A DNA stretch of 64,000 nt from Candidatus Wildermuthbacteria bacterium (GCA_016181405.1 JACOZJ010000002.1:10608-74607); one strand, 5' to 3'. Counted from the first letter of the stretch, positions 5,427-23,480 are shown. Notes: a model not told the origin generated them from the letters alone. A program made the numbers and translations.

Positions 5427-5473
5427 TAGAAAAGTCTTTGAGTTTTGGCACGGGAGTCGAGAGCCTGGTTCAC
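5427..5473. repeat. Left copy of a 47-bp perfect direct repeat (non-coding duplicate of the rnhA 3' end)
   Basis: tagaaaagtctttgagttttggcacgggagtcgagagcctggttcac is identical to 6852-6898. Confidence 0.97.
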
Positions 5474-6831
5474 TGTTTGATTCGATACAACGAAACGGAA
5501 TTCCCCCACCAAAGAACAAGCTTTCCTTTTTCGCGTACGAATACGGCGCGCTCGCCTATGTTATCAAATTTGTTCGTTTTTTCTATGCGGAACTCATTCC
5601 TGCCTAACGGCGCAAGCATCGCGGGCGATTCTTCAAGATCCTCAAAAGGACCTTGGGCAAAAAGTTTTTCCCCAAATTGCACCACAGCAATATCTCCCCA
5701 TCTCCCCCGGTAATACCCCTCAAATCTCCGAAAGTTTTCTGTTTCATCAGGCTTATTCTGCTTATCTTCCATCGCATGGCTAAACACATTATGAATAGTA
5801 AAAGCAATCTGGCTCACGAATACTTCAATACTATTGGTGAGAATAATCGTACTCACCCTGTTTACCGGGTCAATCAAAAGATGCGTAGAAAAACCTTGAA
5901 ACATCCCTTCATGCCCATAGAATGTCCTGCTGTTCTTCTGGGAAATAATAATGCCCAGGCCATAGAAACGATCTCGATTGTCTCCGGTGCGCGCCTGAAT
6001 GCGTTTCATCTCCCTCTTTGACTTTTTCCCAAGAATTCCCACACTATCTCTTTCGTCCGCGAGAAAAACAGCGAACCTCGCGAGGTCTTTAACATTTGTC
6101 GCAACACCCGCAGCTGCGGCAAACGCGTTAGTTTTAACTCGAGAAAATTTCGCCCTCTTCTTTATACCGGGAATAAAACGGCCGTATCCGGAAGCTAAAT
6201 CTCTCGTTGATTTTTGAACATCCGCCGTGCTCGCGACCATACCAAGCGGCCTAAAAATATGGTGTTCAATGTACTTAGTATACTCCATTCCGCTGACCGC
6301 CTGGATAACTTCTCCAAGAAGCGCGAAAGCAAAGTTGGAATACTTAAATTGTTCGTGAGCATCAAAGGTAAGCGTTTCTTTGGAAAGAAGCTCCTTCAGT
6401 TTTGCGGAATTAGGAAAATGGTCATCCACCCATTGATGATGCTCTCCATCTCGAAACATCCCTGAAGTATGGGAAAGCGCCTGTCGAATGGTAATATCCT
6501 TTGAGCTCCTCCTCCCGCACTTTACCTGAAACCAAGGAAGGTAGGAAATAATGGCATCATCAAGATGTAGCTTCTTTCCCTCCGCCAACTGCAATATTGC
6601 TACCGCGGTGAACATTTTTGAAATGGAAGCTACACGGTAGCTTGTTTCCGGCTTTGTCCGCACTTTCCTCTCAACGTCCGCAAAGCCGTATCCCCTCTGG
6701 AGGACGAGCTCTCCATCCAACACTACCCCAAGGGAAAGACCGGGAACATGCTCATAATTCATGCGCTGAGGTAGCCAGAAATCAAGGAAACGTGAGAGCG
6801 AAGCTATTTTTCTCTTTTGACCCTGTTTCAT
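5470..6831 (-). CDS. Beta-lactamase-fold serine hydrolase (class C / EstB-like, penicillin-binding-protein family) with an extra C-terminal domain
   Basis: It has the SxxK motif (ASISKMF), the YxN motif (FKYSNFA) and an HEG third box. The start was set to the ATG at 6831 (MKQGQKRK...) because the ORF-track extension to 6876 lies inside the repeat and rnhA. Confidence 0.85.
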   Translation of the reverse strand: MKQGQKRKIASLSRFLDFWLPQRMNYEHVPGLSLGVVLDGELVLQRGYGFADVERKVRTKPETSYRVASISKMFTAVAILQLAEGKKLHLDDAIISYLPWFQVKCGRRSSKDITIRQALSHTSGMFRDGEHHQWVDDHFPNSAKLKELLSKETLTFDAHEQFKYSNFAFALLGEVIQAVSGMEYTKYIEHHIFRPLGMVASTADVQKSTRDLASGYGRFIPGIKKRAKFSRVKTNAFAAAAGVATNVKDLARFAVFLADERDSVGILGKKSKREMKRIQARTGDNRDRFYGLGIIISQKNSRTFYGHEGMFQGFSTHLLIDPVNRVSTIILTNSIEVFVSQIAFTIHNVFSHAMEDKQNKPDETENFRRFEGYYRGRWGDIAVVQFGEKLFAQGPFEDLEESPAMLAPLGRNEFRIEKTNKFDNIGERAVFVREKGKLVLWWGNSVSLYRIKQ

Positions 6832-6850
6832 ACACAGTAAACTAAATACA

Positions 6851-7291
6851 CTAGAAAAGTCTTTGAGTTTTGGCACGGGAGTCGAGAGCCTGGTTCACGA
6901 GCCGATCGGCGGCCTTATTTTGCTCTCGGGGCACAGCTTGAAATCTTATCTCGCCAAAATCTAATTTAAGATTCCAAAGTTCAAGGAAAAATTTCTGGAT
7001 ACCCGCGTTCTCGATTTTATACTGACCGTTCATTTGTTTTACTAAAAGTTCCGAGTCTGCGAGTATGCGCACCTGCGATTTTTTTGCCTCGGCTTTCCCC
7101 GCAAGCGCTTTGAGTTTTTTGAGAGCCGTAATAGCCGCACGATATTCCGCCTCATTATTTGTAGTTTCACCAATATACTCTGAAATCTCTTTCAGAATGC
7201 TCCCCTGCTCATTTTCTATAACAGCACCAATGGCGGCAGGCCCGGGATTGCCTCTCGCTCCCCCATCAGTACGGATAATAAACGTTTTCAT
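6851..7291 (-). CDS. rnhA: Ribonuclease HI
   Basis: 146 aa. IIRTDGGARGNPGPAAIG, NNEAEYRAAITAL, ILADSELLV and NKAADRLVNQAL fit the RNase H type 1 DEDD pattern. Confidence 0.9.
   Translation of the reverse strand: MKTFIIRTDGGARGNPGPAAIGAVIENEQGSILKEISEYIGETTNNEAEYRAAITALKKLKALAGKAEAKKSQVRILADSELLVKQMNGQYKIENAGIQKFFLELWNLKLDFGEIRFQAVPREQNKAADRLVNQALDSRAKTQRLF
6852..6898. repeat. Right copy of the 47-bp direct repeat (part of the stop codon plus the last 15 codons of rnhA)
   Basis: Identical to 5427-5473. It encodes ...VNQALDSRAKTQRLF*. Confidence 0.97.
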
Positions 7292-8445
7292 TTTTTATTC
7301 TTCTGGAAGTATTCGTATAAACAGCGCTTCACGCCTTCTTCTTTTTCGATACTCGTCTGGAAACCGGATGCCTGCGGATGTCCACCGTAGGTTTCCAAAA
7401 ATTTATCGCACGCCTGCATTGCCTTTACGGTATCATAGCCTGCAGGCGCACGCACACTTCCCAAAATATCCTTTTTACTTTTCCGGTAAATAAAGGCAGG
7501 CTTGTTTGTTTCCTGCGAGATAATAGAAGATACCGAGCCCAGAAGCATATACTCAAATTTCTCGTCTCCCTCAAACACCAAAGGATCGGTTTTCTTATGA
7601 AAAATACGCATACGCACTTCATCGGTAGCTCTGTCGACTTGTTCTCTGCGAATTTTATTTTTCTCCGCGAAAGTCTCAACCATATGCTTAGCCTTCGGCA
7701 AAGAAGGACATGAGAGAAGACGAAACGCGCCGGGTTCGCGCTTTCTGGTATCACGAACATTCAGTATGGATATCATCTGTTGTACCCTACCCTCCAAGGG
7801 CGCATCTGACCCAAAAATATCAGACTCCAAAAGTGCCCGGACGCCGGGCCGCCAAGAATACGGAAGAGCATCCATACCCTCTCGGATAATTTGCACATTG
7901 TCCTGTTCCCGTGCCATCATGTCGGCTATTGTACCCAGTGCCGCAAGCTCCACCATACTTTGATAAAGCGTATCTGACATTTTTTTGCCCAAGAGCGTTT
8001 TGGCAAGCTGCAGCGACAATCCGCACGCCGCAAATTCTTTGAAAGGATACTTGTCCCCTGGCTGTTTGGGATCCACAATAATGTCTGCTTTAGGCAACTT
8101 ATCTAACACTTTATGATGATCCACCACTATGACGGAAAACCCAAGTTTTTTTGCCATAGGAATCTCCTTAAAATTTGAAATCCCCAAATCAAACGTAACG
8201 AGCACTCCGGGCGCGTACTGCTTGAGATACTCCAGCGCTTTTGTTGTTACGCCGTATCCTTCTTTCTCACGCTCCGGAAAGTAGTACGCCACCACATTCC
8301 CGCCCAAACTCTTAATCGCCTCTTGTGCAATAAGCACGGCAGTCACCCCATCCAAATCCGCGTCGCCATATAAAATAATGCGCTCTCCTTGAGCGACCGC
8401 TTTTTTAATTCTATTCGCCGCTTTTGTAAGATTTTTTATTTTCAT
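7288..8445 (-). CDS. DHH/DHHA1 phosphoesterase, short RecJ-like exonuclease
   Basis: GDADLDGVTAV, VVDHHKV and GGHPQASGF (DHHA1) motifs. At 385 aa it is shorter than canonical RecJ. Confidence 0.8.
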   Translation of the reverse strand: MKIKNLTKAANRIKKAVAQGERIILYGDADLDGVTAVLIAQEAIKSLGGNVVAYYFPEREKEGYGVTTKALEYLKQYAPGVLVTFDLGISNFKEIPMAKKLGFSVIVVDHHKVLDKLPKADIIVDPKQPGDKYPFKEFAACGLSLQLAKTLLGKKMSDTLYQSMVELAALGTIADMMAREQDNVQIIREGMDALPYSWRPGVRALLESDIFGSDAPLEGRVQQMISILNVRDTRKREPGAFRLLSCPSLPKAKHMVETFAEKNKIRREQVDRATDEVRMRIFHKKTDPLVFEGDEKFEYMLLGSVSSIISQETNKPAFIYRKSKKDILGSVRAPAGYDTVKAMQACDKFLETYGGHPQASGFQTSIEKEEGVKRCLYEYFQKNKK

Positions 8446-9551
8446 ATTTCCAGTGCCTTTAACCCGGGGAGCTCCTCGCCGGATAAGAATGCGAGCATGG
8501 CGCTGCCGCCTGTGGATACGTGGCTAAATTTATCCCGCAGGCCGTGCGTATCAAGGAATCCAACAAGATCTCCGCCGCCAACAACAGAAAACGCACCAGA
8601 CGCGATAATGGCTTTGGCTACCGCCAAAGAACCTTTTGCATATTCTTCTTCCTCGGCTTTTCCCAAAGGGCCTGTCCAAAATACTGTTTTTGCTTTGGCT
8701 ATTTTTGCCGCATATAGTTTAACAGTTTCTGGCCCGATATCCAACGCCTGCTCTTGGGAAGGAATTCCATCTGCTGGCCCAACGATTTTTTCTCTTCCTT
8801 TTGGAGCAAGATTTTTTGATTGGATTTCGTTGAATACGGGGTTGCCGACGAGTACCTCGTCGGCAAGCTGGCACATTTCTTCAAGAAAATGTGTTTTCGA
8901 CTCTATTTTTGTACCGCCAATAATAACAACGACCGGACGCGTAGGATCTTTGACAACTTTTCCAAGTGCCTCAACTTCTTTCTCCAGCAGCAAACCTGCG
9001 GCCGAAGGCAAAAACTTTGGTATGCCTACAAGTGAAGCATGCGCCCTGTGGTTCACGGAAAATGCCTCATTAATATACACCTCCCCCAAGCTCGCCAAAA
9101 GTTTCGCGAATGCAGGATCATTTTCTTCCTCGCCCTTGTAAAAACGAATATTCTCCAGGAGTACTACATCTCCCGGCTTCATCATCTCTATCTGCTTTTC
9201 TGCTTTTTCTCCAATAGGGTCTTCGATAAATGTAATTTTTTGATTCAGTAATTGCTGCAACCTTTGTGCAATTGGTTTTAAACTTTCTTCTTTTTGAATT
9301 TGAGATCTGCTTGGGATTTGTGATTTGGAGTTTGAGGTTTCCCCGATTTGAAAAATCGTGGTTGGTCTCCCCAAATGCGCGAGCAAAATTACTTTTGCGC
9401 CCCGCTCTCTGGCATACTGAATGGTTTGCATGCTCTCTTGAATGCGAAAATCATCAACAATATTTCCTTGCTCGTCGAGCGGAACATTAAAATCGCATCG
9501 CACCAATACCCGTTTGCCCTCCAATTGAAAATCCCGAAGCGATTTCATCAT
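8442..9551 (-). CDS. pgk: Phosphoglycerate kinase
   Basis: KRVLVRCDFNVPLDEQGNIVDDFRI, LAHLGRP, VSTGGSAMLAFLSGEELPGLKAL. The start has an ATGA overlap with the upstream gene. Confidence 0.93.
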   Translation of the reverse strand: MMKSLRDFQLEGKRVLVRCDFNVPLDEQGNIVDDFRIQESMQTIQYARERGAKVILLAHLGRPTTIFQIGETSNSKSQIPSRSQIQKEESLKPIAQRLQQLLNQKITFIEDPIGEKAEKQIEMMKPGDVVLLENIRFYKGEEENDPAFAKLLASLGEVYINEAFSVNHRAHASLVGIPKFLPSAAGLLLEKEVEALGKVVKDPTRPVVVIIGGTKIESKTHFLEEMCQLADEVLVGNPVFNEIQSKNLAPKGREKIVGPADGIPSQEQALDIGPETVKLYAAKIAKAKTVFWTGPLGKAEEEEYAKGSLAVAKAIIASGAFSVVGGGDLVGFLDTHGLRDKFSHVSTGGSAMLAFLSGEELPGLKALEI

Positions 9552-11227
9552 TTCTTAAAATAAATGGTTTCTCCTGGCTTCAAAACTCCCTTACTTGCCT
9601 CTTCTCCTTCCTTGAGAGAAGGGCTGGTCGTTCGCGCTTTTTGCAGAGCTTCCTGCAAAACTGCCTGCAGACCATGCGTATCTCTCTCTTCTCTCTTTCC
9701 TTCTTCCCGTTGCGGCTTTCCCTTCGAAAGATCAGAAGGCTGCCCTTTTTGTGGGCGAGAACCCGCCACCTCACTTCCTTCCTGTTTCCGCTTGAGTTTT
9801 TTTCTGCACGCTTTGCAATACACCGGTCTTTTCCCGTCGGGAGGAAATACCACTTTGGTATCTCTGCCGCAGTTTGAACATCTGGCATCGTATAAAACCT
9901 GCTGTTCTTTGGGAGCGGGCACGGGCGGGGCCGCGGTCAATCCTTCTATTCCGGTCCACTGCATTATTTGCGCTTCCACGTTCGCAACCGCAGTCGCATA
10001 GTGCTCACGCGAAAACTGAATAACTTCTTCGCGATATGATTTTTCTGGCGCAGTGGGTGGAGGAAGCGTGGTCGCGGAAAATGGCCGTGACGCAATCCCG
10101 TCGATCATCAATTTTACGTAAATGGTGTACTTCCCCAGATTCATAAAATCTATCGCTACAAACTCGGGGAAAAACTCTTTCTCAAGAAACTCTGCGTCTT
10201 CTGCGCCAACGCGAAACGATACCATAGTCCCCACGTTTCCGAACACCGCGTCTCTCACTTTCGCCTCTGTCCCAACCCCAAGCTGCGCGATGTATTGATG
10301 GCTCAAAATTAAGGAAAGGCGGTATTTCCGTGCTTCAGACAAAATATTCACGAAGCTCTCTGTGGCAAAGTGCTGAAACTCGTCGATATAAAGAAAGAAA
10401 TCCTGCCTCTGTTCCTCTGGGACATCCACGCGCGACATTGCGGCAAGCTGAAGCTTCGTGATTAGCAGGCCGCCGATAAGCCTCGAATTGTCTTCACCGA
10501 TTCGCCCCTTTGAGATATTTACAAGAAGGATTTTATTTTCGTCCATCGCTTTTCGCATATCAATGGAAGACCTCGTCTGCCCAACAATATTCCTAATCAA
10601 AGGGTTAGACGTAAGCTGCCCTACCTTGTTCTGCACGGCAGCCGTTGCTTCCACCTCATACCGCTGGGTATATCGGGCGTACTCTTGCAGCCAGAAAGTT
10701 TTTACCACGGGATCTGACACGTGCTCCACTACTTTCTGACGATATTCAACGTCAACCAGCATCCGGTTGATGCCCAAAAGCGTGGAATCGGGATATTCCA
10801 ATAGGGCAAGCACTACATTGTTCAAAATATATTCCATGCGCGCGGACCACACGTCGGGCCAGATCTTCTTAAACACCGACATTAAACCAGAAGCCACCAT
10901 ATGGCGTTTATCTGGATCTACCTGCTCCATAACGTTAAACGCGATAGGGTGAGTCATATCTGCCGGATTAAAATAGATGACGTCCTTTACGCGCTCCTCG
11001 GGAACAAAATCCAGAAGCTCCTCTACCGCTTCGCCATGCGGATCCACAAAACCGACTCCGTGGCCGTTTTGTATATCCTGCAAAGCCATATTCTTTAGCA
11101 TCTCGGTTTTGCCCATTCCTGTTTTTCCGACAGCGTAAAAATGGCGCCGACGATCGTCGAGCTTTATTCCAAACTTTCTTCTCATATTCCGAAAGTTTGT
11201 CTCCCCAAAGAAATTAATTTCTTCCAT
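9548..11227 (-). CDS. Type IV secretion coupling-protein-like (VirD4/TraD/TraG family) P-loop ATPase with a C-terminal zinc ribbon and a Lys/Glu-rich tail
   Basis: Walker A is AVGKTGMGKT and Walker B is FFLYIDEFQHF. A LILSHQYIAQL block is present. The C-terminal CSNCGRDTKVVFPPDGKRPVYCKACRKK is a CxxC-x17-CxxC motif. Confidence 0.8.
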   Translation of the reverse strand: MEEINFFGETNFRNMRRKFGIKLDDRRRHFYAVGKTGMGKTEMLKNMALQDIQNGHGVGFVDPHGEAVEELLDFVPEERVKDVIYFNPADMTHPIAFNVMEQVDPDKRHMVASGLMSVFKKIWPDVWSARMEYILNNVVLALLEYPDSTLLGINRMLVDVEYRQKVVEHVSDPVVKTFWLQEYARYTQRYEVEATAAVQNKVGQLTSNPLIRNIVGQTRSSIDMRKAMDENKILLVNISKGRIGEDNSRLIGGLLITKLQLAAMSRVDVPEEQRQDFFLYIDEFQHFATESFVNILSEARKYRLSLILSHQYIAQLGVGTEAKVRDAVFGNVGTMVSFRVGAEDAEFLEKEFFPEFVAIDFMNLGKYTIYVKLMIDGIASRPFSATTLPPPTAPEKSYREEVIQFSREHYATAVANVEAQIMQWTGIEGLTAAPPVPAPKEQQVLYDARCSNCGRDTKVVFPPDGKRPVYCKACRKKLKRKQEGSEVAGSRPQKGQPSDLSKGKPQREEGKREERDTHGLQAVLQEALQKARTTSPSLKEGEEASKGVLKPGETIYFKK

Positions 11228-11230
11228 ATA

Positions 11231-12559
11231 TTATTCAAGAGGCAACCCGCGCGGAGCTTCTCCCTTTCTTGTCTCCACACGCGGCATTGTACCCGAAGGA
11301 AAGACATCCCTGCCCGGGAAGTGAAACATTGTCGCCAGCTCCTCAATATTCAGCATGAACGTTCCCCCGCTTCTTGGCCAATAAAAGTTATCGCGCGAGC
11401 AATATAGCCGGAACAAACGCCTGCGCCTGATATATCTTTTCCGCTCGTCTAAGAAAAAAGTCCGTACCGTATACACTTTGGTGGTTTGGAGCGCTCGCAC
11501 AAAATTGAGATTTGCCGTGTTGAATTGCTGCATATACTGGAACGGAAGCACTTTGGTAATGCCCAGATACTTTTCGGCTCTCGCCAAATAAACGAAGCGG
11601 GCGGTGGTATTGAACATCTGCTTGCTGATTTTCTCTTCTATGGCAGTAACCACGTCCCGCTCTCCGGTGGTTAAACGAAGCTCGGGCGCCATAAGCCCTT
11701 GCGGCTCTTCTTTCCCTCCGGTCATCTTCCGTTCAGTATCTTCTCCGGTTGTCAGCATATGGCCCACGGCGCGAATATCTTCTGTTATAGGAATCGTAGG
11801 CTCTCCTCCCTTTCCCTCGGTTATTCGGTGCACAAGCTTATCCACCTCTGCTTTTCCGCGTTTATAAATGTCGGTTTCAGCTGGAGCGCGAGGCGTTAAA
11901 AGAAACTGAATCCACAAATGCTCCCCTTGTCCCAACTGTGACATTCCTTCCACCAAACTCCCTACCGGATCCACCCGCTGCTCCGCCTTTATATCCTCCT
12001 TTTCCTCGAAAAACCGCTTATATGTACGAAGAGGATACACATCGGACTTCTCAAGCTTAAACGTCGCTCCCCACATACGCCATTCTTTATTGGGCACGTT
12101 CCGGGGGACTAGTTTGGTATAATCTTCAACTTCTGTTAATTCGGCATCCGGAAACTGCGCGTATAGCACAGGTTCCATAATTCGCCGTGATTGTTCTGGT
12201 ATACGGATATAAAAATGCACATTGCCTTCGGTAGACACTAATTCCAAACTAAAGCCAAGCTGGTATTGTCCGTCTATCCATACTTCCCGAAAATTCGGAG
12301 GATCATGTATCTGCCACCAGCCCGCGAATACGCTTTCCATAGCTTTGATGGGTTTTTCCACGTCGGGCGGTATCTTTATCTCAAGCACAATACGCCGCAG
12401 CGTAAGCTCAAACTTGTACATGCGCCACCACTTCCAGAAATACATGGCCTGTGGCCAAAGGAAAAACGGCGCGAAAACCCACCACCAGGTTTTCACAAAC
12501 TCCCAGAGAAACTGCACAAAGGGGAAGGTAAGGCGAAAAAAAGTTTCCGTAACTTCCAT
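11231..12559 (-). CDS. Conserved-hypothetical membrane protein, partner of the T4CP-like ATPase
   Basis: The N-terminus has Trp-rich TM spans (FVKTWWWVFAPFFLWPQAMYFWKWWRMY) and is followed by a large soluble domain. The gene sits 3 nt upstream of the ATPase. ATG at 12559; an alternative TTG start lies at 12595. Confidence 0.65.
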   Translation of the reverse strand: MEVTETFFRLTFPFVQFLWEFVKTWWWVFAPFFLWPQAMYFWKWWRMYKFELTLRRIVLEIKIPPDVEKPIKAMESVFAGWWQIHDPPNFREVWIDGQYQLGFSLELVSTEGNVHFYIRIPEQSRRIMEPVLYAQFPDAELTEVEDYTKLVPRNVPNKEWRMWGATFKLEKSDVYPLRTYKRFFEEKEDIKAEQRVDPVGSLVEGMSQLGQGEHLWIQFLLTPRAPAETDIYKRGKAEVDKLVHRITEGKGGEPTIPITEDIRAVGHMLTTGEDTERKMTGGKEEPQGLMAPELRLTTGERDVVTAIEEKISKQMFNTTARFVYLARAEKYLGITKVLPFQYMQQFNTANLNFVRALQTTKVYTVRTFFLDERKRYIRRRRLFRLYCSRDNFYWPRSGGTFMLNIEELATMFHFPGRDVFPSGTMPRVETRKGEAPRGLPLE

Positions 12560-12584
12560 TCTCCTATTGTACACCAATTTTGCC

Positions 12585-13640
12585 TTACTCTCCAATACAA
12601 TAGTATCCCTCCCCCTCCCGCAAGAAACAAGTCTTATCCTGAAGATTTAAGAGAATCGTGCTTTCTTTCACCTGCCGCTGGGCAAGTGTTTTTTGCACAA
12701 TTTCTTCTTTGGTCATTGCTTTGTTGTTCTCACGCAGGATTTCCTTGATCACATCTTTTACGGTTCCAGGTTTAAACCCCCATTCTTCCAATGCGTACGT
12801 TCCCCTTCCCACCAGCACAAACCGGGAATCCTTAATCAGTTCGTTGTGAACGGTCTGAGGCAATACTACCCTTTTCCGCCAACTAGCAGATTGTTCTGCC
12901 AAAACTTCTTGCAATCGTTCTATAAGTTTTGCCACCTCCACAAAGTGAAGAGGCCTTCCCGCATCGTGAAGCACAACATAGGCTTTGTCGCGCATTCCTT
13001 TGGGATATACCTCGGGCCATTCGCGCAACCCCCATTTTCCATTATGCGTTCGAGCAACGAGTTTGGAAATTTCAAGCAAAGAGGCCAAAGTACGAGGATG
13101 CAGCTTTTCTCCCTCATGCACACCATGCACTTTTGCCAATTCTTCAAATTCAAGCGGCGCTTTCCGATCTTGCAGATAGGAGCAAATTGCTTCCAGAAGC
13201 CCGGGGCTGATTTCTGCAATCTCCTTTTTGCTTGCCCAAAAAGGATGCACGTATTCCGTTTCTTTATGCCTATGAAACTGATCTCCCAAATGCAAGAGAA
13301 AAATAATATGATTTTCAATCTTCGGAGTTCCCACTTCCTGAACCAAAAGGTCCTGTCGCTTCACGTTGCCTGACTCACGAAGCGCCAAAAGAAACCGCTG
13401 AAAGATTGCATCAAGTTTCTCCTGCTCTTTTTTACGCGAAGCAGCTTCCTTCACCTCACGAAGCCCGTCTTCCACGATCTGGCGCACACGCTCGCGCGTA
13501 ATGCCGTGACTTTGTCCGATTGCCTCCAAAGTTTCAGGCTCCTGCTCTTGCAACCCAAATCTCCTCTGCAGGATATCTCGAGCACGAGGATGTAAATCGG
13601 AAAGAAGAGCAACGGTCAATTTTTCGTAGGGAAAAGTCAT
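12585..13640 (-). CDS. Sigma-70 region-4-like HTH protein fused to a HARE-HTH (RpoE-delta/ASXH-like) domain
   Basis: The N-terminus LSDLHPRARDILQRRFGLQEQEPETLEAIGQSHGITRERVRQIVEDGLREVK matches the sigma region 4.2 pattern. The C-terminus AYVVLHDAGRPLHFVEVAKLI...GRGTYALEEW... is HARE-HTH-like. Confidence 0.65.
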   Translation of the reverse strand: MTFPYEKLTVALLSDLHPRARDILQRRFGLQEQEPETLEAIGQSHGITRERVRQIVEDGLREVKEAASRKKEQEKLDAIFQRFLLALRESGNVKRQDLLVQEVGTPKIENHIIFLLHLGDQFHRHKETEYVHPFWASKKEIAEISPGLLEAICSYLQDRKAPLEFEELAKVHGVHEGEKLHPRTLASLLEISKLVARTHNGKWGLREWPEVYPKGMRDKAYVVLHDAGRPLHFVEVAKLIERLQEVLAEQSASWRKRVVLPQTVHNELIKDSRFVLVGRGTYALEEWGFKPGTVKDVIKEILRENNKAMTKEEIVQKTLAQRQVKESTILLNLQDKTCFLREGEGYYCIGE

Positions 13641-14524
13641 TAGGAGATTAAACCAAACTTTCCTTTACTTGTCAAGAGGGGCGGCGCCACAAACAAGGAA
13701 GACCAGTTTCCCGCCGCAATACCAATGGCTAGAGTAAGCGCAAAATCCCGAAGTGTCCCCCCTCCAAAAAATAGAATAGCGAGCACCGCAAGCAACGTGG
13801 TAAGAGAGGTATTCATGGAACGGGTGAATGTTTGCTCCAAACTTAGCCTTAAAGTATCTGCGAAATCCGCTCCTACCTTCTTGAGCAGATTTTCGCGAAC
13901 GCGATCAAACACTACCACGGTATCGTTTACGGAATATCCAACCACGGTCAAAAGCGCAACCACCACCGGAATAGTGATCTGCACCCCATAGAATCTGCCC
14001 AAAAACGCGAGCACTCCCAAGGGGAGTAAAACATCATGCAGCAATGCCGCAAGTGTTGCCAAACTCCACTGCCATGAATGCACCGGCTGCTTAACCTTTC
14101 GAAAAGCAAACATTACATAGATAACAATGGAAGCTAAGGCAAGAGCCAGAAGGATTGCGGCCCTACTCTGCAATTCTTTTCCTATTACCGGTCCAATGGA
14201 TTCAAAGCGCATCTCCTGCGTCCCTTCTCCAAGAGCAGACAACACCTCTTGGTGTTTTTCTTCCGAAAGATCTCCCATACGCAGAAGAATTCCACGCTCC
14301 TCCACTCGTTGAGCAGAAACCAAACCAACATCTAAACCCGAAAGCTGCGAACGCACTGATTCTAAAGATGGAGGGTCTTGCTCGTAAGCCACCTCCAGAA
14401 TGCTCCCTCCAGTAAACTCTATGCCGGGCTTCAAACCAAAAACCGCAATACTCATAATACTCGCGAGCATCAAAATCAAAGAAAGCGCGAAGAAAAATTT
14501 GGAATATCGCAGAATACTTTTCAT
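13640..14524 (-). CDS. secF: Protein translocase subunit SecF
   Basis: FGLKPGIEFTGGSILEV and VGYSVNDTVVVFDRVREN, with 6 TM spans. ATG at 14524, one nt after the secD stop. Confidence 0.9.
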   Translation of the reverse strand: MKSILRYSKFFFALSLILMLASIMSIAVFGLKPGIEFTGGSILEVAYEQDPPSLESVRSQLSGLDVGLVSAQRVEERGILLRMGDLSEEKHQEVLSALGEGTQEMRFESIGPVIGKELQSRAAILLALALASIVIYVMFAFRKVKQPVHSWQWSLATLAALLHDVLLPLGVLAFLGRFYGVQITIPVVVALLTVVGYSVNDTVVVFDRVRENLLKKVGADFADTLRLSLEQTFTRSMNTSLTTLLAVLAILFFGGGTLRDFALTLAIGIAAGNWSSLFVAPPLLTSKGKFGLIS

Positions 14525-14525
14525 A

Positions 14526-15869
14526 TTATTTCCACAGCCATCGAAATTCCCCAAATCTTGTATTCAAAAAAAGGCGCAGGAAATTCCTGGTCACAAAAAT
14601 CGCAGAGAACATACTCATTAAAATTCCGAGCGTGAGAGCCAGGGCAAACCCCCGCACAAAGGAGGTCCCAAACCAAAAAAGGATTATAGCAACAAATAGC
14701 GTCGTAATGTTTCCGTCGCGAATGGAAGGCCATGCCCGCCGGAATCCTTCCTCCCAGCTTATGGCAAAAGATTTTCCCTCTAAGAATTCTTCGCGAAAAC
14801 GAGAGAAAATAAGAATATTTGCGTCAACTGCCATACCTACAGAAAGAATGATTCCCGCGATTCCCGCTAACGTGAACGTAAACCCGAACATTTTAAACAA
14901 AAACAAGAGAAATACCCCATACAGAAAGAGCGCCACAACTGCAATAACGCCGGGAATCCGATAGAACAAAATCATGAATACAGCTACAAGTAAAAATCCA
15001 ACTGCGGCCGCGCGCAAACTTTGTTCCAAAGAAACTTTGCCCAACGTGGGCCCCACGGTCTGCTGAGAAATTAAACTAATGGAAACAGGCACAGCTCCCG
15101 CATTGAGATTGCGCACGACCTGTCTTACCTCTTCTATGGTAAAATCACGTCCCGTAATCTGCGCCCGGCCACCCGAAATTTCTGTCTGCACAACAGGTGC
15201 TTGCAGTAAAACATTATCAAGAAAAATCGCAAGCGGCTTGCCCACGTTGCGTTTTGTTATTTCCTGAAAAAGTTGAGCCCCTTCGCTGTTAAACGTCAAA
15301 AGAATCGTTGGCTCTTGCGTCAGCTGTTCAAAACCTACTTCAGCGCGCTCCAGAAAACTTCCATTAAGCGGAGTAGACTGAAATGGATCCTCCAGGTCCC
15401 CCTCTCCGGTTTCAGCAACCTGTTGGTTTTTCCGCACAATTTCTTCATAGTTCTCTTTAGGCTCACGGAAATCAAGAAAAGGCGCCCGCCCAATAAGCTC
15501 AATGGCCTGTTCAGAATCAATCACACCAGCGATTTCCACGATTAACCTCCGTTCATCTCCCCGCCCCTCGATTTGCACCAAGGGTTCTGCCACTCCAAAA
15601 TAATTCACTCTGCGCTCAATTACATCACGCAGTCCTTCCATCGCAGAATCGTAGTCGGCAGAATCCACACGCGATAAATCGGCTTGATATACCAGGTGAA
15701 CGCCGCCTTGGAGATCCAAGCCCAAGCGAAAGGGTATTTCCGGCACTTGCGGGCTGCCGGGAAGTTTTGCCAATTGAGGATTTATCTGTTGCGAAAAGTC
15801 AAAAAATCCGGCAGCCACCCCTGCCAGAACAATAACCAATACAATAGTAACCACCTGCCATTTTTTCAT
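14526..15869 (-). CDS. secD: Protein translocase subunit SecD
   Basis: LGLDLQGGVHLVYQ and LSVGMAVDANILIFSRFREE. Start chosen at MKKWQVV (15869), which has AAGGTG 6 nt upstream. 15875 is also possible. The ORF-track extension to 15995 was rejected. Confidence 0.9.
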   Translation of the reverse strand: MKKWQVVTIVLVIVLAGVAAGFFDFSQQINPQLAKLPGSPQVPEIPFRLGLDLQGGVHLVYQADLSRVDSADYDSAMEGLRDVIERRVNYFGVAEPLVQIEGRGDERRLIVEIAGVIDSEQAIELIGRAPFLDFREPKENYEEIVRKNQQVAETGEGDLEDPFQSTPLNGSFLERAEVGFEQLTQEPTILLTFNSEGAQLFQEITKRNVGKPLAIFLDNVLLQAPVVQTEISGGRAQITGRDFTIEEVRQVVRNLNAGAVPVSISLISQQTVGPTLGKVSLEQSLRAAAVGFLLVAVFMILFYRIPGVIAVVALFLYGVFLLFLFKMFGFTFTLAGIAGIILSVGMAVDANILIFSRFREEFLEGKSFAISWEEGFRRAWPSIRDGNITTLFVAIILFWFGTSFVRGFALALTLGILMSMFSAIFVTRNFLRLFLNTRFGEFRWLWK

Positions 15870-15937
15870 CCCCATCACCTTACCACACTTTGTTCTCCCT
15901 CGCAAGCAGAACGTATATGCCGCGGAGTATAGAGCGA

Positions 15938-16011
15938 GCATCGCGGGTTCTTCCGCAGACGCGAGGGTCCACGCCGCAGGCGGGGTAAAGCGCAAGGAAA
16001 ACCCGCGATGC
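15938..16011 (-). other. GC-rich long inverted repeat (16-bp stem, about 41-nt GC-rich loop) in the leader region between the DUF1614-like gene and secD
   Basis: GCATCGCGGGTTCTTCC (15938-15954) pairs with GGAAAACCCGCGATGC (15996-16011) with one bulged C. No U-run follows on either strand. Confidence 0.5.
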
Positions 16012-19013: not shown

Positions 19014-19441
19014 ATGTCTTTGTCTACTGCTTCCATAATCAGGTGGGTGCCGGGGAGCACATCGAGATGTTGGATCTCCTCTCTCCCATACCATTTCACT
19101 TCGGAAACTTTTTTGTCTAAAGGTTTCGGTTCGCCCGATATATGCCTCGCCTCAAAACTCCAAATAAATGCCTGAAGAGCAATACCATCATTCCTTTGCC
19201 ATATTTTATTATAAGCAAGCGGCAGAACTCGCACTATCTCAACAACACAGCCAGTTTCTTCTTTACACTCTCGACAAGCTGCTTGCTCTGGCGTCTCGCC
19301 GAACTCCACAACTCCGCCCGGAAACTCCCATTTGCCGTCTGCCTCCGGAATCAAAGGGTCAATCCTCTTTTGCATGAGAAATTTTCCCTCTGCGTTGCGG
19401 ACACACGCCACCGCAATAACCTTTTGCTTTTTATCCTCCAT
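19010..19441 (-). CDS. Nudix hydrolase (MutT-like)
   Basis: FPGGVVEFGETPEQAACRECKEETG. Start set to MEDKKQK (19441), just after the secA stop. Confidence 0.88.
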   Translation of the reverse strand: MEDKKQKVIAVACVRNAEGKFLMQKRIDPLIPEADGKWEFPGGVVEFGETPEQAACRECKEETGCVVEIVRVLPLAYNKIWQRNDGIALQAFIWSFEARHISGEPKPLDKKVSEVKWYGREEIQHLDVLPGTHLIMEAVDKDI

Positions 19442-21956
19442 GGCATTTTTTGAACTTCTTTCCGGAGCCGCAGGGGCAGGGATCGTTGCGCCCCACCTTT
19501 TCACCAGCCGGAGCGCTGCTCTGCGGCGCGGAGGCGGACGCCAGCGGCGCCGAATTCGAAGTAGAACTGGCGGGGCTCGAATAGCTCACATTTTTAGTGG
19601 GAATCACGGGTTGCGGCTGCAGATGCGCGTTCATTAAAGAAGTCGCTATGTTCTCATCTATCGCGTCGAGCAGCTGGCGGAACATTCGATGCCCTTCATT
19701 TTTGTATTCGATAAGAGGATCCTGCTGGCCATACGCGCGCAGGCGCACCGACTCTCGCACATACTCCATGTTCTCCAAATGTCCTACCCACAGAGAATCA
19801 ATCGCGTGCAAAGCCACAATTTTTTCTGCTTGGCGCATGTTTTTCTCGCCGAGCTCCTGTTCTTTCTTTTCATACTCTTCTTTGGTAAAGCCTACCTTCC
19901 CTTCCTCAAGGGTCGCACTTTGGCGTTGAATAATATTCATAACATGCTCTTTGAGTTCTCCTTTTTGAGCTTTTCCCAAAATATCTCGACGGAGGCGATA
20001 TATCGCGTCTCTATGTTTATTCAACACATCGTCAAACTGCAACAAATGCTTCCGAGCGTCAAAATGGAAACCTTCTATCTTTGACTGCGCGGATTCCAGC
20101 GCCCCAGAAAGCATTCTGTTCTCAATAGGCTGATCTTCTGGCATATGAAGTTTTTCCATTAGCCCCTTGATTTTCTCGCCGCCGAACACCCGCATCAAAT
20201 CATCTTCCAAAGAAACGAAAAACTGCGTGGAGCCAGGATCGCCCTGCCTACCCGACCGCCCGCGAAGCTGGTTATCAATTCTCCGAGCTTCATGACGCTC
20301 TGTGCCTATTACATGCAACCCGCCCAATCCTTTTACTTTTGCCGCCTCCTCTTCGTCTTGCGGATTGCCGCCCAACACAATATCCACGCCGCGGCCCGCC
20401 ATGTTTGTTGCCACGGTTACGGCACCAAAACGCCCCGCCTGAGCGATAATTTGAGCTTCTTGCTCATGGTTTTTTGCATTGAGAACTTTGTGAGGAATCC
20501 CCTCTACCTCAAGCAATTTCCCCAGATATTCATTTTTCTGAATAGACACGGTGCCCACGAGCACAGGTTGCCCTTTCTCGTGCTTCTCTGCAATCTCTCG
20601 CGCCACTGCGCGAAACTTTCCTTGTTCTGATTTGTAAATGCGGTCCGGCAAATCTTGCCTGATCATTGGTTTGTTGGTAGGAATTTCTACAACCTCCAAG
20701 CCATATACTTTGTAAAATTCCTCCTCCGAAGTTAGAGCGGTTCCGGTCATGCCGGCTAATTTTTTGTACATCCGGAAATAGTTCTGGAATGTAATGGAAG
20801 CCAACGTAAGGGATTCGGGTTGCACCTGCACTCCTTCTTTTGCTTCCAGTGCCTGATGCAGTCCACCAGAATAGCGGCGCCCGGGAAGCAAACGGCCCGT
20901 GAATTCGTCGACAATCACTACCTGCCCCGAACGCACTACATAATCGCGATCGAGCTGAAACAAACCCTGCGCGCGCAACGCCTGCTCTAAATGATGAACA
21001 TATTTAATTCCTTTTTCTTGGTAAATATCCTCCACGCCCAAAAGCTTTTCCACTTTGTTGATCCCAGGATCGGTAATCGTTACTGCCTTGAGTTTTTCAT
21101 CAATTTCGTAATCCACATCCTTTTGCAGCTGCGGCGTGATTTTCGCAAAATCCCTGTACCATGAGGAGCTTTCTTCGTCGGGCGCAGAAATAATCAAAGG
21201 TGTTCTGGCTTCATCTATTAAGATGGAATCAACTTCGTCGATAATGGCCAAGTGATGCCCCCGTTGCACTTGTTGTTCCAAGTCATACACCATATTGTCG
21301 CGCAAAAAATCAAACCCGAATTCGTTGTTTGTACCGTATGTAATATCGGCCGCGTACGCCTCCTTTCTTGTACAAGGATGCAGGTACGAATCTTCCACGA
21401 GGAAACTCCCTTTTTCATCGCGCCGCTCGTCTTTTTCATCATTTGGCTCCTGGCGATAGTTAGCATCATATATATAAGAAGCTTCATGCGTAATACATCC
21501 AACCGAAAGCCCCAGGGCATCATAAATTTGCCCCATCCATACGGCGTCACGCTTTGCCAAATAATCATTTACCGTAACCACGTGCACGCCTTTCCCTTCC
21601 AGTGCGTTCAGGTACGCGGGAAGAGTAGCAACAAGCGTTTTCCCTTCACCCGTTTTCATCTCTGCAATTTTCCCTTCATGCAGCACCGCACCTCCGATTA
21701 TCTGTACGTCGAAATGACGCTGGCCTAGGGTACGCTTCGCGGATTCGCGAACAAGGGCAAAAGCTTCGGGGAGCAAATCTTGGAGTGAACTACCCCCGCC
21801 GATTTTTTCTTTGAGTCCCTCTGTTTTTGTTTTGAGTTCTCCTAAATCGAGTTTCTCAAGCTCAAGCTCCAAAGCATTCACCTGCGAAACAATTTCTTGT
21901 AGCGCCTTCACGGTCGAACCCTGTCCACCTTTGAAAATTTTGTTTAATACTCCCAT
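19431..21956 (-). CDS. secA: Preprotein translocase ATPase SecA
   Basis: 841 aa. MKTGEGKTLVATLPAYLNAL, the DEAD-like IIDEVDSILIDEARTPLIIS and the C-terminal zinc motif CPCGSGKKFKKCHG. Confidence 0.96.
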   Translation of the reverse strand: MGVLNKIFKGGQGSTVKALQEIVSQVNALELELEKLDLGELKTKTEGLKEKIGGGSSLQDLLPEAFALVRESAKRTLGQRHFDVQIIGGAVLHEGKIAEMKTGEGKTLVATLPAYLNALEGKGVHVVTVNDYLAKRDAVWMGQIYDALGLSVGCITHEASYIYDANYRQEPNDEKDERRDEKGSFLVEDSYLHPCTRKEAYAADITYGTNNEFGFDFLRDNMVYDLEQQVQRGHHLAIIDEVDSILIDEARTPLIISAPDEESSSWYRDFAKITPQLQKDVDYEIDEKLKAVTITDPGINKVEKLLGVEDIYQEKGIKYVHHLEQALRAQGLFQLDRDYVVRSGQVVIVDEFTGRLLPGRRYSGGLHQALEAKEGVQVQPESLTLASITFQNYFRMYKKLAGMTGTALTSEEEFYKVYGLEVVEIPTNKPMIRQDLPDRIYKSEQGKFRAVAREIAEKHEKGQPVLVGTVSIQKNEYLGKLLEVEGIPHKVLNAKNHEQEAQIIAQAGRFGAVTVATNMAGRGVDIVLGGNPQDEEEAAKVKGLGGLHVIGTERHEARRIDNQLRGRSGRQGDPGSTQFFVSLEDDLMRVFGGEKIKGLMEKLHMPEDQPIENRMLSGALESAQSKIEGFHFDARKHLLQFDDVLNKHRDAIYRLRRDILGKAQKGELKEHVMNIIQRQSATLEEGKVGFTKEEYEKKEQELGEKNMRQAEKIVALHAIDSLWVGHLENMEYVRESVRLRAYGQQDPLIEYKNEGHRMFRQLLDAIDENIATSLMNAHLQPQPVIPTKNVSYSSPASSTSNSAPLASASAPQSSAPAGEKVGRNDPCPCGSGKKFKKCHGG

Positions 21957-23430: not shown

Positions 23431-23480
23431 AAACGAGGCACGTACTTATCATACCGTACTACCCTCGTTTTTCTTTTTTA
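23431..23480. terminator. Bidirectional intrinsic terminator (tRNA on the plus strand, helicase on the minus strand)
   Basis: AAACGAGG ... CCTCGTTT stem. It is flanked by TTTTCTTTTTT on the plus strand and by a T-rich run on the minus strand. Confidence 0.6.

What the first reader, a model, noticed from the sequence alone, without database searches (positions are those of the whole stretch)
9548..13640. An orphan T4SS coupling-protein-like ATPase with a membrane partner and a sigma-r4/HARE-HTH protein, embedded in the secDF-pgk operon
A VirD4/TraD-like P-loop ATPase (Walker A GKTGMGKT, Walker B FFLYIDEFQHF) sits 3 nt downstream of a 440-450-aa protein. That partner has Trp-rich N-terminal TM spans and no recognisable domain.

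The pair is preceded by a protein fusing a sigma-70 region-4.2-like HTH to a HARE-HTH. Translational overlaps or close abutment couple these genes to secD-secF upstream and pgk downstream (1-, 4- and possibly 11-nt overlaps; the last depends on the TTG start at 12595).

No other T4SS component (VirB4, VirB6, VirB10, relaxase, pilin) is present in the 64 kb. The ATPase lacks the usual N-terminal TM anchor. Instead it ends in a CxxC-x17-CxxC zinc ribbon plus a Lys/Glu-rich tail, so the separate membrane protein may supply the anchor.

A two-component, Sec-linked DNA or protein translocation module of this kind is not a described system as far as I know.
Basis: partly seen in the sequence, partly recalled or inferred. 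Interest (0 to 1): 0.55.

Follow-up and report, generated by a model that had tools for sequence, protein, structure and literature searches.

The report
Split conjugation-type coupling ATPase in Patescibacteria
Two adjacent genes in this ultra-small bacterium are the two halves of a conjugation-type "coupling" ATPase that has been cut in two, moved into a housekeeping operon and kept almost unchanged across a whole bacterial class; what it transports is unknown.

Summary
All three ORFs, the Walker A/B motifs, the CxxC-x17-CxxC zinc ribbon, the Lys/Glu-rich tail and the 1-, 3- and 4-nt gene junctions are present as described.

The ATPase (9548-11227) is a VirD4/TrwB-type coupling protein (T4CP) by Pfam and by fold. 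The "domain-less" partner (11231-12595) belongs to Pfam DUF8128. It is homologous to the N-terminal ~300 residues of 800-900-aa single-chain T4CPs. Those sit next to Replic_Relax relaxases and VirB4 on Firmicutes and Actinobacteria plasmids and in some Bacillus phages. The pair is therefore one T4CP split at its domain junction, and the partner supplies the membrane anchor.

The gene order secD-secF-HTH-DUF8128-ATPase-pgk-DHH-RNaseH recurs in 80 species-level Patescibacteria genomes. The ATPase is adjacent to DUF8128 in 70 of 73 loci. It is more conserved (median 63.5% identity) than SecD or PGK.

Published work already counted 5,713 such T4CP homologues in 2,918 Patescibacteria genomes, rarely near virB4, and raised exaptation. 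About 80% of those genomes carry a T4SS elsewhere, so "orphan" holds only locally. The Sec link is synteny only.

I found no publication describing the split architecture or the identity of DUF8128. Verdict: a new variant of a known kind, of moderate interest.

The parts
9548..11227 (-). T4CP-type ATPase, 559 aa: nucleotide-binding domain with a helical insert, then a zinc ribbon and a low-complexity tail
   Evidence: Pfam TrwB_AAD_bind, TraG-D_C, T4SS-DNA_transf and zf_Tbcl_2. Best solved-structure matches are DotL, TrwB and Cag-beta. Identity to Patescibacteria homologues is 60-96%, with more than 8000 hits.
11105..11128 (-). Walker A, GKTGMGKT (residues 34-41)
   Evidence: Read from the sequence. 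Six of the eight positions (G34-K40 except M38 variants) are invariant in the 36-sequence alignment.
10367..10399 (-). Walker B region, FFLYIDEFQHF (residues 277-287)
   Evidence: Read from the sequence. D282, E283, F284 and Q285 are invariant.
9806..9880 (-). CxxC-x17-CxxC zinc ribbon (C450, C453, C471, C474)
   Evidence: PF23477 3.6e-11 and TIGR04272 42.6 bits, above the 36-bit cut-off. The four Cys are invariant. Zinc binding has been shown for this domain type in M. mazei small proteins (PMC12704099).
9551..9796 (-). Lys/Glu-rich variable tail ending in a conserved C-terminal motif (KGVLKPGETIYFKK; consensus G-x-L-x-PGETV-x-F)
   Evidence: In alignment A3 the linker varies in length and sequence, while G547, P551, G552, T554 and F557 are nearly invariant. 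AF2 confidence is low here.
11231..12595 (-). DUF8128 partner: an N-terminal aromatic membrane segment plus a cytoplasmic alpha/beta domain homologous to the N-terminal domain of single-chain T4CPs
   Evidence: Homologues carry PF26449. hhalign against the Shouchella plasmid 883-aa T4CP gives 97.9%, 5.3e-13, over profile columns 97-430. hhalign against phage G gp156 gives 97%, 4.7e-11. AF2 pLDDT is 83. Foldseek hits are phage G gp156 at 1.5e-16 and TrwK/VirB4.
12434..12490 (-). Predicted membrane segment TWWWVFAPFFLWPQAMYFW (residues 36-54)
   Evidence: The Wimley-White octanol-scale sum is -18 kcal/mol, and the same segment scores -15 to -22 in 11 homologues. It is followed by K/R-rich residues, which implies a cytoplasmic C-terminal domain (inference).
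12585..13640 (-). Sigma-70 region-4 plus HARE-HTH protein, conserved immediately upstream. Its functional link to the pair is unproven.
   Evidence: Pfam. Its profile matches RpoS/RpoD region 4 in the PDB at 1e-13. It is adjacent to DUF8128 in 66 of 72 loci. No sigma region 2 is present.
6851..15995 (-). Conserved, tightly packed housekeeping block: secD-secF-HTH-DUF8128-ATPase-pgk-DHH-RNaseH
   Evidence: The same order is seen in L001 and in nearly all of the 80 species-level genomes.

Best explanation
The two genes encode the two halves of one type IV coupling protein (T4CP, VirD4/TrwB family) that has been split at its domain junction.

DUF8128 corresponds to the N-terminal region of single-chain T4CPs of monoderm conjugative plasmids. 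It has a membrane segment plus a roughly 380-residue cytoplasmic alpha/beta domain whose fold weakly resembles full-length TrwK/VirB4. The ATPase gene encodes the nucleotide-binding motor, starting about 30 residues before Walker A. It carries an added zinc ribbon and a flexible tail with a conserved C-terminal peptide.

Shown:
- homology of both halves to one fused protein class
- obligate adjacency of the two genes
- vertical inheritance inside a housekeeping operon across Paceibacteria-type Patescibacteria
- stronger conservation than SecD or PGK

Inferred: the two chains assemble on the cytoplasmic face of the membrane into a TrwB-like hexameric NTP-driven motor that recognises a substrate and pushes it towards a membrane channel. 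The zinc ribbon, the basic residues and the DNA-binding T4CP ancestry make the substrate more likely nucleic acid than protein.

My best guess for the channel is the chromosomal, relaxase-less T4SS that most Patescibacteria encode elsewhere and that lacks its own T4CP (about 0.45). A T4SS-independent, exapted role is nearly as likely (about 0.35).

The upstream sigma-r4/HARE-HTH protein is co-inherited, but its participation is not shown.
For: - T4CP identity of the ATPase: Pfam and NCBIfam hits. Foldseek ranks DotL 6sz9_A (6e-7), TrwB and Cag-beta ahead of HerA and the VirB4 C-terminal domain.
- Fusion evidence: PHROG 5156 covers the partner at profile positions 73-285 and the ATPase at 408-806. 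The DUF8128 profile matches phage G gp156 residues 47-160 (97%) and Shouchella plasmid T4CP residues 54-313 (97.9%, 5e-13). In both proteins the C-terminal half matches the window ATPase. BFVD structural hits are 1.5e-16, 4.8e-13 and 3e-12.
- The fused relatives are true T4CPs. In Embleya the order is TrbL/VirB6, PrgI, VirB4-like, fused T4CP, Replic_Relax, NlpC/P60. In Shouchella the fused T4CP is followed by Replic_Relax, with an AAA_10 VirB4 nearby. In phage JL, gp150 is followed by a Replic_Relax gene, gp149.
- Obligate pairing and vertical inheritance: at least 552 species genomes have relatives. The ATPase is within 400 nt downstream in 70 of 73 loci, with a median spacer of 18 nt. The same housekeeping synteny recurs.
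- Conservation: ATPase median identity 63.5%, against SecD 55%, RNase H 56%, SecF 48% and PGK 44%.
- Membrane anchor. No hydrophobic segment in the ATPase.
- Literature: 5,713 T4CP homologues in 2,918 of 3,035 genomes, only 148 near virB4, and VirB4 in 2,417 genomes. The Southlakia T4SS cluster lacks a recognisable coupling protein.
Against: - No physical interaction or hexamer was tested. The multimer or pseudo-fusion model could not be run.
- The AF2 model of the ATPase is mediocre (pLDDT 69; residues 290-382 below 50), so fold ranks rest mainly on residues 40-290.
- Similarity of DUF8128 to VirB4 is structural only, with low TM-scores (0.27-0.34). Sequence profiles did not match TrsD, TrsE or phage G gp155.
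- Against a T4SS role: the genes are essentially never near virB4. No relaxase is present. PMC12102498 states that the t4cp homologue of S. epibionticum is dispensable while the T4SS genes are essential. T4CP homologues are found in more genomes than VirB4.
- Orthology of the Southlakia gene to this pair was not checked.
- The substrate is entirely inferred.
Confidence: 0.6

Rival explanations
1. Exapted, T4SS-independent housekeeping translocase. The split T4CP works on its own or with another channel such as ComEC or the type IV pilus machinery. Possible roles are import of nucleic acid for nucleotide salvage, or handling of chromosomal DNA at the membrane.
For: - It sits in a core housekeeping operon and is more conserved than SecD or PGK.
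- T4CP homologues occur in 96% of genomes against 80% for VirB4, and almost never near virB4. The authors themselves raise exaptation, and the Southlakia homologue is non-essential while the T4SS is essential.
- A zinc ribbon and a basic stretch have been added to the motor.
- RecJ-like DHH and RNase H genes are conserved downstream.
- Two loci place type IV pilin or pilus genes next to or inside the pair.
Against: - No T4CP is known to act without a T4SS-type channel.
- The prevalence difference can arise from MAG incompleteness combined with about two T4CP copies per genome.
- The pilin associations are two anecdotes in pilin-rich genomes.
- pgk lies between the ATPase and the nuclease genes, so the block looks like generic conserved synteny.
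- According to PMC12857230, ComEC deletion in Southlakia abolishes competence without affecting viability.
Confidence: 0.3
2. Sec-linked two-component protein or DNA translocation module. The pair cooperates with SecDF/SecA because the genes are translationally coupled.
For: secD-secF-HTH-pair order occurs in 53 of 61 loci with enough upstream sequence. SecA lies a few genes further upstream both in the window (19431-21956) and in L001.
Against: - Equally conserved adjacency to pgk, DHH and RNase H shows this is a general syntenic block.
- In L051, L065, L069-L071, L075 and L080 the pair persists without adjacent secDF.
- Fused homologues on plasmids and phages sit with relaxases and VirB4, never with Sec genes.
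Confidence: 0.04
3. Remnant of a mobile element, prophage or defence system: an integrated conjugative element T4CP, or a MADS mad8-like ATPase.
For: - PADLOC mad8 hit at 3.4e-14.
- The closest non-Patescibacteria relatives are on plasmids and phages.
Against: - Composition is the same as the surroundings.
- No integrase, relaxase or other MADS or T4SS genes are present.
- The chromosomal position is identical in 80 species with vertical-looking divergence.
- The scan of viral contigs found no relative of the partner.
Confidence: 0.03

Closest known systems
Single-chain T4CPs of monoderm conjugative plasmids that carry Replic_Relax relaxases (Shouchella clausii plasmid WP_248290882.1, 883 aa; Embleya plasmid WP_331738717.1, 812 aa)
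   Same: Both halves are homologous and colinear. The DUF8128 profile aligns to residues 54-313 of the Shouchella protein (97.9%). The ATPase aligns to the C-terminal half: 27% identity in Shouchella and 31% in Embleya (E 2e-54). Walker motifs and the TraG-D_C region are shared.
   Different: Those are one polypeptide, plasmid-borne, and next to a relaxase and VirB4/VirB6/PrgI. Here there are two genes, on the chromosome, in a housekeeping operon with no relaxase. A C-terminal zinc ribbon and a conserved tail peptide have been added, and the membrane segment sits at the extreme N-terminus rather than mid-domain as in the phage forms.
Bacillus phage proteins of PHROG 5156 (phage G gp156, phage JL gp150, TP-84 754-aa protein)
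   Same: These are fused DUF8128-like plus T4CP-like proteins. Phage G has a VirB4-like gp155 immediately upstream, and JL has a Replic_Relax gene immediately downstream.
   Different: They are fused and phage- or plasmid-like in context, with 25-28% identity. Their function in phages is unknown.
TrwB (R388), DotL and Cag-beta: canonical VirD4-family coupling proteins
   Same: They are the best solved-structure matches for the ATPase (prob 1.0, about 300 aligned columns). The P-loop domain with a helical insert is shared, and Pfam TrwB_AAD_bind matches.
   Different: Identity is only 14-17%. Canonical T4CPs have their own N-terminal transmembrane helices and no DUF8128-type domain, and they are encoded with relaxosome or T4SS genes.
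TrwK/VirB4 and the TrsD+TrsE arrangement of pGO1-type systems
   Same: Ten of the eleven best PDB matches for the DUF8128 model come from R388 TrwK/VirB4 entries. According to PMC12102498, TrsD is remotely homologous to the N-terminal part of VirB4 and is encoded as a separate protein beside VirB4. That is a precedent for an N-terminal domain and a motor on separate chains.
   Different: TM-scores are low (0.27-0.34). There is no profile similarity to S. aureus TrsD or TrsE. The ATPase does not hit VirB4-type families (AAA_10, P-loop_TraG), and it ranks T4CPs above the VirB4 C-terminal domain.
Patescibacteria 'T4CP homologues' of Quinonero-Coronel et al. 2025 (PMC12102498)
   Same: Almost certainly the same gene family: VirD4-type, near-universal and far from virB4.
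   Different: In the text I read, that study did not describe the DUF8128 partner, the split, the zinc ribbon or the conserved secDF-pgk context. Searches for DUF8128 and PF26449 returned no paper.

Membership tests
Type IV coupling protein (VirD4/TrwB/TraD family) | VirD4/TrwB-type P-loop nucleotide-binding domain with Walker A and B | tested here: met
   PF10412 43.7 bits (cut-off 20.5), PF02534 22.6 bits (cut-off 20.1) and PF12696 24.0 bits (cut-off 22). The motifs are invariant. Foldseek top hits are DotL, TrwB and Cag-beta.
Type IV coupling protein (VirD4/TrwB/TraD family) | All-alpha domain inserted in the nucleotide-binding domain | tested here: inconclusive
   The AF2 model shows a confident helical block at residues 105-230, between Walker A and Walker B. 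The Pfam TrwB_AAD_bind match spans residues 24-341. No residue-level superposition on the TrwB all-alpha domain was available.
Type IV coupling protein (VirD4/TrwB/TraD family) | N-terminal membrane anchor on the same polypeptide | tested here: not met
   Walker A starts at residue 34 and there is no hydrophobic segment. The anchor lies on the separate DUF8128 protein, which is homologous to the N-terminal region of fused T4CPs.
Type IV coupling protein (VirD4/TrwB/TraD family) | Genetic linkage to a relaxase and/or mating-pair-formation genes (VirB4, VirB6) | tested here: not met
   None is present in the 64-kb window. The 80 related loci show housekeeping neighbours. The literature reports 148 of 5,713 homologues near virB4. 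Linkage in trans to a T4SS elsewhere in this genome could not be tested.
Type IV coupling protein (VirD4/TrwB/TraD family) | Hexameric, nucleic-acid-stimulated NTPase that couples a substrate to a T4SS | not testable with these tools
   This needs biochemistry and genetics.
Pfam PF26449 (DUF8128) | Significant match to the family model | tested here: met
   The local Pfam copy lacks the model. However, 113 of the 120 listed homologues, including one at 95% identity, carry the precomputed PF26449 annotation, and L001 names it DUF8128.
VirB4 (T4SS signature ATPase) | VirB4-type C-terminal ATPase (AAA_10, P-loop_TraG, CagE_TrbE_VirB) joined to the VirB4 N-terminal domain | tested here: not met
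   The ATPase hits none of these families and ranks the VirB4 C-terminal domain structures 4ag5/4ag6 below T4CPs and HerA. Only the partner's fold weakly resembles full-length TrwK.
MADS defence system (mad8) | mad8 ATPase together with the other mad genes in one locus | tested here: not met
   There is a single PADLOC hit at 3.4e-14 to mad8. No other PADLOC hits occur in the partner or the neighbours tested, and the context is housekeeping.
Sigma-70 family sigma factor (for the HTH protein) | Region 2 (-10 recognition and core binding) together with region 4 | tested here: not met
   Only region 4 matches (residues 12-65). All NCBIfam sigma models score far below their cut-offs.
RNA polymerase delta subunit (for the HTH protein) | HARE-HTH N-terminal domain plus an acidic C-terminal tail, scoring above the TIGR04567 cut-off | tested here: inconclusive
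   TIGR04567 scores 39.7 bits against a cut-off of 42. The HARE-HTH lies at residues 217-287, not at the N-terminus.

The most novel reading that the evidence does not exclude
A conjugation coupling ATPase was domesticated early in Patescibacteria, split into an anchor and a motor, and became a core, T4SS-independent membrane translocase. One candidate role is import of host-derived nucleic acid for organisms that cannot make nucleotides. The co-inherited sigma-r4/HARE-HTH protein would serve as its nucleic-acid adaptor.
Probability: 0.25. Interest if true: 0.75.

Novelty: new variant of a known kind. Interest (0 to 1): 0.45.

Why it matters
Patescibacteria make up a large share of bacterial diversity and depend on hosts for building blocks. 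Their T4SS is essential in the one strain tested, yet its gene cluster lacks a coupling protein.

This work shows three things about the near-universal "stray" T4CP homologue. It has a dedicated membrane partner, DUF8128. It is a split version of a specific plasmid T4CP class. It is under stronger constraint than SecD or PGK. Together these turn an annotation oddity into a defined two-protein target.

The pair can now be tested in cultivable strains such as Minisyncoccus archaeiphilus or Saccharibacteria. The question is whether it feeds the T4SS or has a separate housekeeping role.

The result also assigns an evolutionary identity to a domain of unknown function with about 2,800 sequence clusters. 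It further identifies T4CP-relaxase modules inside Bacillus phage genomes.

Tried and rejected
1. Exact look-up of the window ATPase in the assembly index found nothing on record.
2. A pseudo-fusion structure model did not work. A linker-joined sequence aligned with unpaired homologues gave a wrong MAFFT alignment (A2), so it was not submitted.
4. The DUF8128 profile found nothing among PDB sequences, even at E up to 10.
5. hhalign of DUF8128 against S. aureus TrsD, TrsE/VirB4 and phage G gp155 showed no signal. The match to phage JL gp150 was colinear but not significant, as was the match to the TP-84 protein.
6. The idea that the HTH protein is a diverged Replic_Relax relaxase was rejected: hhalign probability 0.1%.
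7. The programmed-readthrough idea was rejected. In the window the partner and the ATPase are in frame, separated by a stop codon plus one codon. Across 75 loci the frame relation is random (26/27/22).
8. A scan of viral contigs for DUF8128 relatives found none.
9. Literature searches for DUF8128/PF26449 returned no paper. Searches for the zinc-ribbon domain name returned only an M. mazei small-protein study and one unrelated paper.
10. R388 (accession BR000038) could not be fetched from the plasmid collection.

Full report
**1. The observation**

- a 351-aa protein (12585-13640);
- a 454-aa protein (11231-12595, if the TTG start is used);
- a 559-aa ATPase (9548-11227).

They sit between secD/secF upstream and pgk, a DHH phosphoesterase and RNase H downstream.

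The junctions are tight. secF and the HTH gene share 1 nt. The partner and the ATPase are 3 nt apart. The ATPase and pgk overlap by 4 nt. The 11-nt overlap between the HTH gene and the partner depends on the TTG at 12595. A GTG at 12574 and an ATG at 12559 are equally plausible starts.

Pfam confirms TrwB_AAD_bind, TraG-D_C, T4SS-DNA_transf and the CxxC-x17-CxxC zinc finger in the ATPase. It confirms Sigma70_r4 plus HARE-HTH in the first protein. The Walker motifs and the four cysteines are invariant among 36 homologues.

The ATPase has no hydrophobic segment. The partner has one strongly membrane-favourable aromatic segment at residues 36-54, conserved in its relatives.

I found no other T4SS gene in the 64 kb. 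The only other Walker-A ORF is a PIF1-type helicase. The rest of the window is SecA, MurB, envelope and sugar-nucleotide genes. Base composition is uniform.

**2. The partner is not domain-less**

Its relatives carry the precomputed Pfam family PF26449, named DUF8128 in locus L001. The local Pfam copy lacks this model. A full HMMER scan of 1.84 billion cluster representatives finds 2,846 clusters at E up to 1e-3, and 929 at 1e-30.

An AlphaFold2 model (pLDDT 83, pTM 0.76) shows a long N-terminal helix followed by alpha/beta domains.

**3. The two genes are one protein elsewhere**

Several lines of evidence show this.
- PHROG 5156 is an 824-position profile. It matches the partner at positions 73-285 and the ATPase at positions 408-806.
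- tblastn of the ATPase against phage genomes hits the C-terminal halves of 750-910-aa proteins of Bacillus phage G (gp156), CP-51/JL/Shanette and TP-84.
- The DUF8128 profile matches the N-terminus of gp156 (hhalign 97%, 4.7e-11).
- The partner model matches the predicted structures of gp156, JL gp150 and a phage Slash protein at 1.5e-16 to 3e-12.

The decisive case is a Shouchella clausii plasmid protein of 883 aa. The DUF8128 profile aligns to its residues 54-313, covering profile columns 97-430 (97.9%, 5.3e-13). The window ATPase aligns from about residue 325 onward. The break between the two window genes therefore falls at the domain junction of the fused protein.

**4. The fused relatives are genuine coupling proteins**

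- On the Embleya plasmid the 812-aa homologue (31% identity to the ATPase, 2e-54) lies in the order TrbL/VirB6-like, PrgI, VirB4-like ATPase, T4CP, Replic_Relax relaxase, NlpC/P60 hydrolase.
- On the Shouchella plasmid it is followed by a Replic_Relax gene, with conjugal-transfer genes and an AAA_10 VirB4 a few kb downstream.
- In phage JL the next gene, gp149, is also Replic_Relax, and a ParM/StbA gene lies nearby.
- In phage G a VirB4-like gp155 lies immediately upstream.

The window ATPase's best solved-structure matches are DotL, TrwB and Cag-beta, ahead of HerA and the VirB4 C-terminal domain. That model is only moderately confident (pLDDT 69).

The partner model's best PDB matches are, in ten of the top eleven, chains from R388 TrwK/VirB4 entries. 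The domain-only VirB4 structure and the T4CPs are absent from that list. I read this as a resemblance to the VirB4 N-terminal domain. The TM-scores are low (0.27-0.34) and profile comparisons with TrsD, TrsE and gp155 were negative. I therefore treat this only as a hint that this T4CP class keeps an N-terminal domain of the kind seen in its paralogue VirB4.

**5. Distribution and context**

A scan of one genome per species found at least 552 genomes with a DUF8128 relative. All labels are Patescibacteria, including the cultured Minisyncoccus archaeiphilus.

In the best 80 loci:
- the ATPase follows DUF8128 within 400 nt in 70 of the 73 cases with enough sequence, with a median spacer of about 18 nt;
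- the HTH gene precedes DUF8128 in 66 of 72 cases;
- the whole order secD-secF-HTH-DUF8128-ATPase-pgk-DHH-RNaseH is kept in most loci.

Where rearrangements occur, the pair stays together while secDF or the HTH gene are displaced.

Measured against the window proteins, the ATPase is the most conserved gene of the block. Median identities are:

| Protein | Median identity |
|---|---|
| ATPase | 63.5% |
| RNase H | 56% |
| SecD | 55% |
| SecF | 48% |
| PGK | 44% |
| HTH protein | 40% |
| DUF8128 | 39% |

. This pattern is that of a vertically inherited housekeeping gene, not of a mobile element.

**6. What is already known**

Quinonero-Coronel et al. 2025 (PMC12102498) searched 3,035 Patescibacteria genomes.
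- They found VirB4 in 2,417 genomes, mostly in one Patescibacteria-specific clade nested in the monoderm MPF-FATA class. In Paceibacteria it often lies near dnaA.
- They found 5,713 VirD4-type T4CP homologues in 2,918 genomes, of which only 148 were near virB4.
- They noted that the Southlakia homologue is dispensable although the T4SS genes are essential, and that exaptation "cannot be ruled out".

Wang et al. 2023 stated that the Southlakia T4SS cluster lacks recognisable coupling and relaxase proteins.

The existence of stray T4CP homologues in this phylum is therefore published. I found nothing on DUF8128, the split, or the conserved operon context.

**7. Mechanism**

Shown: the pair is a split T4CP whose N-terminal half carries the membrane segment, and the two halves are inherited as a unit.

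Inferred from established properties of the family (TrwB forms membrane-anchored hexamers and is a DNA-dependent ATPase):
- DUF8128 tethers and scaffolds a hexameric motor on the cytoplasmic face.
- The motor recognises a substrate and drives it towards a channel.

The added zinc ribbon is of a type shown to bind zinc in M. mazei small proteins (PMC12704099). The adjacent basic stretch and the T4CP's DNA-binding ancestry favour a nucleic-acid substrate. The conserved extreme C-terminal peptide (G-x-L-x-PGETV-x-F) after a variable linker looks like a docking motif for an unknown partner.

On which channel it serves, I give about 0.45 to the chromosomal relaxase-less T4SS, which lacks its own T4CP and descends from the same monoderm conjugation stock. 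I give about 0.35 to a T4SS-independent, exapted role, and the remainder to other possibilities.

Arguments for independence:
- the housekeeping context;
- higher prevalence than VirB4;
- the reported dispensability in Southlakia.

Arguments for coupling:
- no T4CP is known to work without a T4SS-type channel;
- T4CP genes are commonly encoded away from the mating-pair-formation genes.

**8. The other claims**

The Sec link is synteny only. Fused homologues never sit with Sec genes, and the pair outlasts secDF adjacency.

The HTH protein has a true sigma region 4 (1e-13 to RpoS/RpoD region 4 in the PDB) and a HARE-HTH. It has no region 2 and no similarity to Replic_Relax. It may be an RNA-polymerase-associated or DNA-binding factor that merely shares the operon, or it may be an adaptor. 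Nothing tested here decides between these.

The defence (mad8) and mobile-element readings are contradicted by the conserved chromosomal position.

**9. Verdict**

The module is a split member of a known family rather than an undescribed system. It is probably not orphan at genome level, and its ATPase half is already in the literature.

The new elements are the identity of DUF8128, the split architecture, the unusually strong conservation and the fixed housekeeping context. This is a new variant of a known kind, of moderate interest. It offers a clear experimental route in the few cultivable Patescibacteria.

Noticed in passing
L050:9402-12896 (Minisyncoccus archaeiphilus PMX.108, NZ_AP038758.1): In the cultured Minisyncoccus archaeiphilus, a 1164-aa gene is inserted between DUF8128 and the ATPase. 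It has a classic type IV prepilin N-terminus (MNKRAFTLIELLVIIAIIAILAA). This is the only locus of the 80 where a gene was seen inserted between the two (gap 3.7 kb).
   Followed up: partly
L083:381-5043: Type IV pilus genes lie divergently just upstream of the HTH-DUF8128-ATPase trio in one Patescibacteria genome. They were recognised from their N-terminal sequences only: PilB/GspE-like, PilC/GspF-like and three pseudopilins.
   Followed up: no
L085:4744-8311 (Bacillus phage JL gp150-gp149) and L002:2223-6365 (phage G gp155-gp156): Large Bacillus phages carry plasmid-style conjugation modules. In JL, a fused T4CP is followed by a Replic_Relax relaxase-family gene, with ParM/StbA nearby. In phage G, a VirB4-like ATPase is followed by the fused T4CP. 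In GenBank these are annotated 'MsbA-like' or hypothetical.
   Followed up: partly
window 9551-9796 (ATPase residues 478-559): After a linker of very variable length and composition (0 to more than 200 residues in homologues), the last ~12 residues are conserved across the family (consensus KG-x-L-x-PGETV-x-F). This suggests a docking peptide for an unidentified partner.
   Followed up: no
window 9548-11227 versus neighbours, 80 loci: The ATPase is more conserved across species (median 63.5% identity) than SecD (55%), RNase H (56%), SecF (48%) or PGK (44%) from the same loci.
   Followed up: yes
window 11228-11233: The partner and the ATPase are in the same reading frame, separated only by a stop codon and one Tyr codon. 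A single readthrough would recreate the fused protein. Across 75 loci the frame relation is random, so this is coincidence.
   Followed up: yes
window 12559-12595: The partner's start codon is ambiguous. Candidates are TTG 12595, TTG 12577, GTG 12574 and ATG 12559. AGGAG lies only 1 nt before the ATG, and homologues mostly begin at the positions equivalent to the GTG or the ATG.
   Followed up: partly
window 23478-25163: A PIF1-like helicase with a C-terminal HTH_40 domain lies between MurB and an fn3-domain protein. It is the only other Walker-A ORF of 100 aa or more found in the window.
   Followed up: no
window 5470-6876: A 468-aa beta-lactamase-family (PF00144) gene sits between RNase H and MurJ. 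L001 has two small unannotated genes at that position.
   Followed up: no
L087:7986-9173 (Sulfitobacter mediterraneus plasmid): The closest non-Patescibacteria relative of the ATPase (38% identity, 3e-84) is a 395-aa stand-alone protein on a non-mobilizable alphaproteobacterial plasmid. It sits among transposases and a recombinase, with no DUF8128-like gene annotated beside it. The record holds a second match that I did not inspect.
   Followed up: partly
L071:11502-15558: Downstream of the ATPase in one Staskawiczbacteria genome are two paralogous ~550-570-aa proteins. Both start with a zinc-ribbon-like motif (CQNC...x...FCPECR) of the same flavour as the ATPase's C-terminal ribbon.
   Followed up: no
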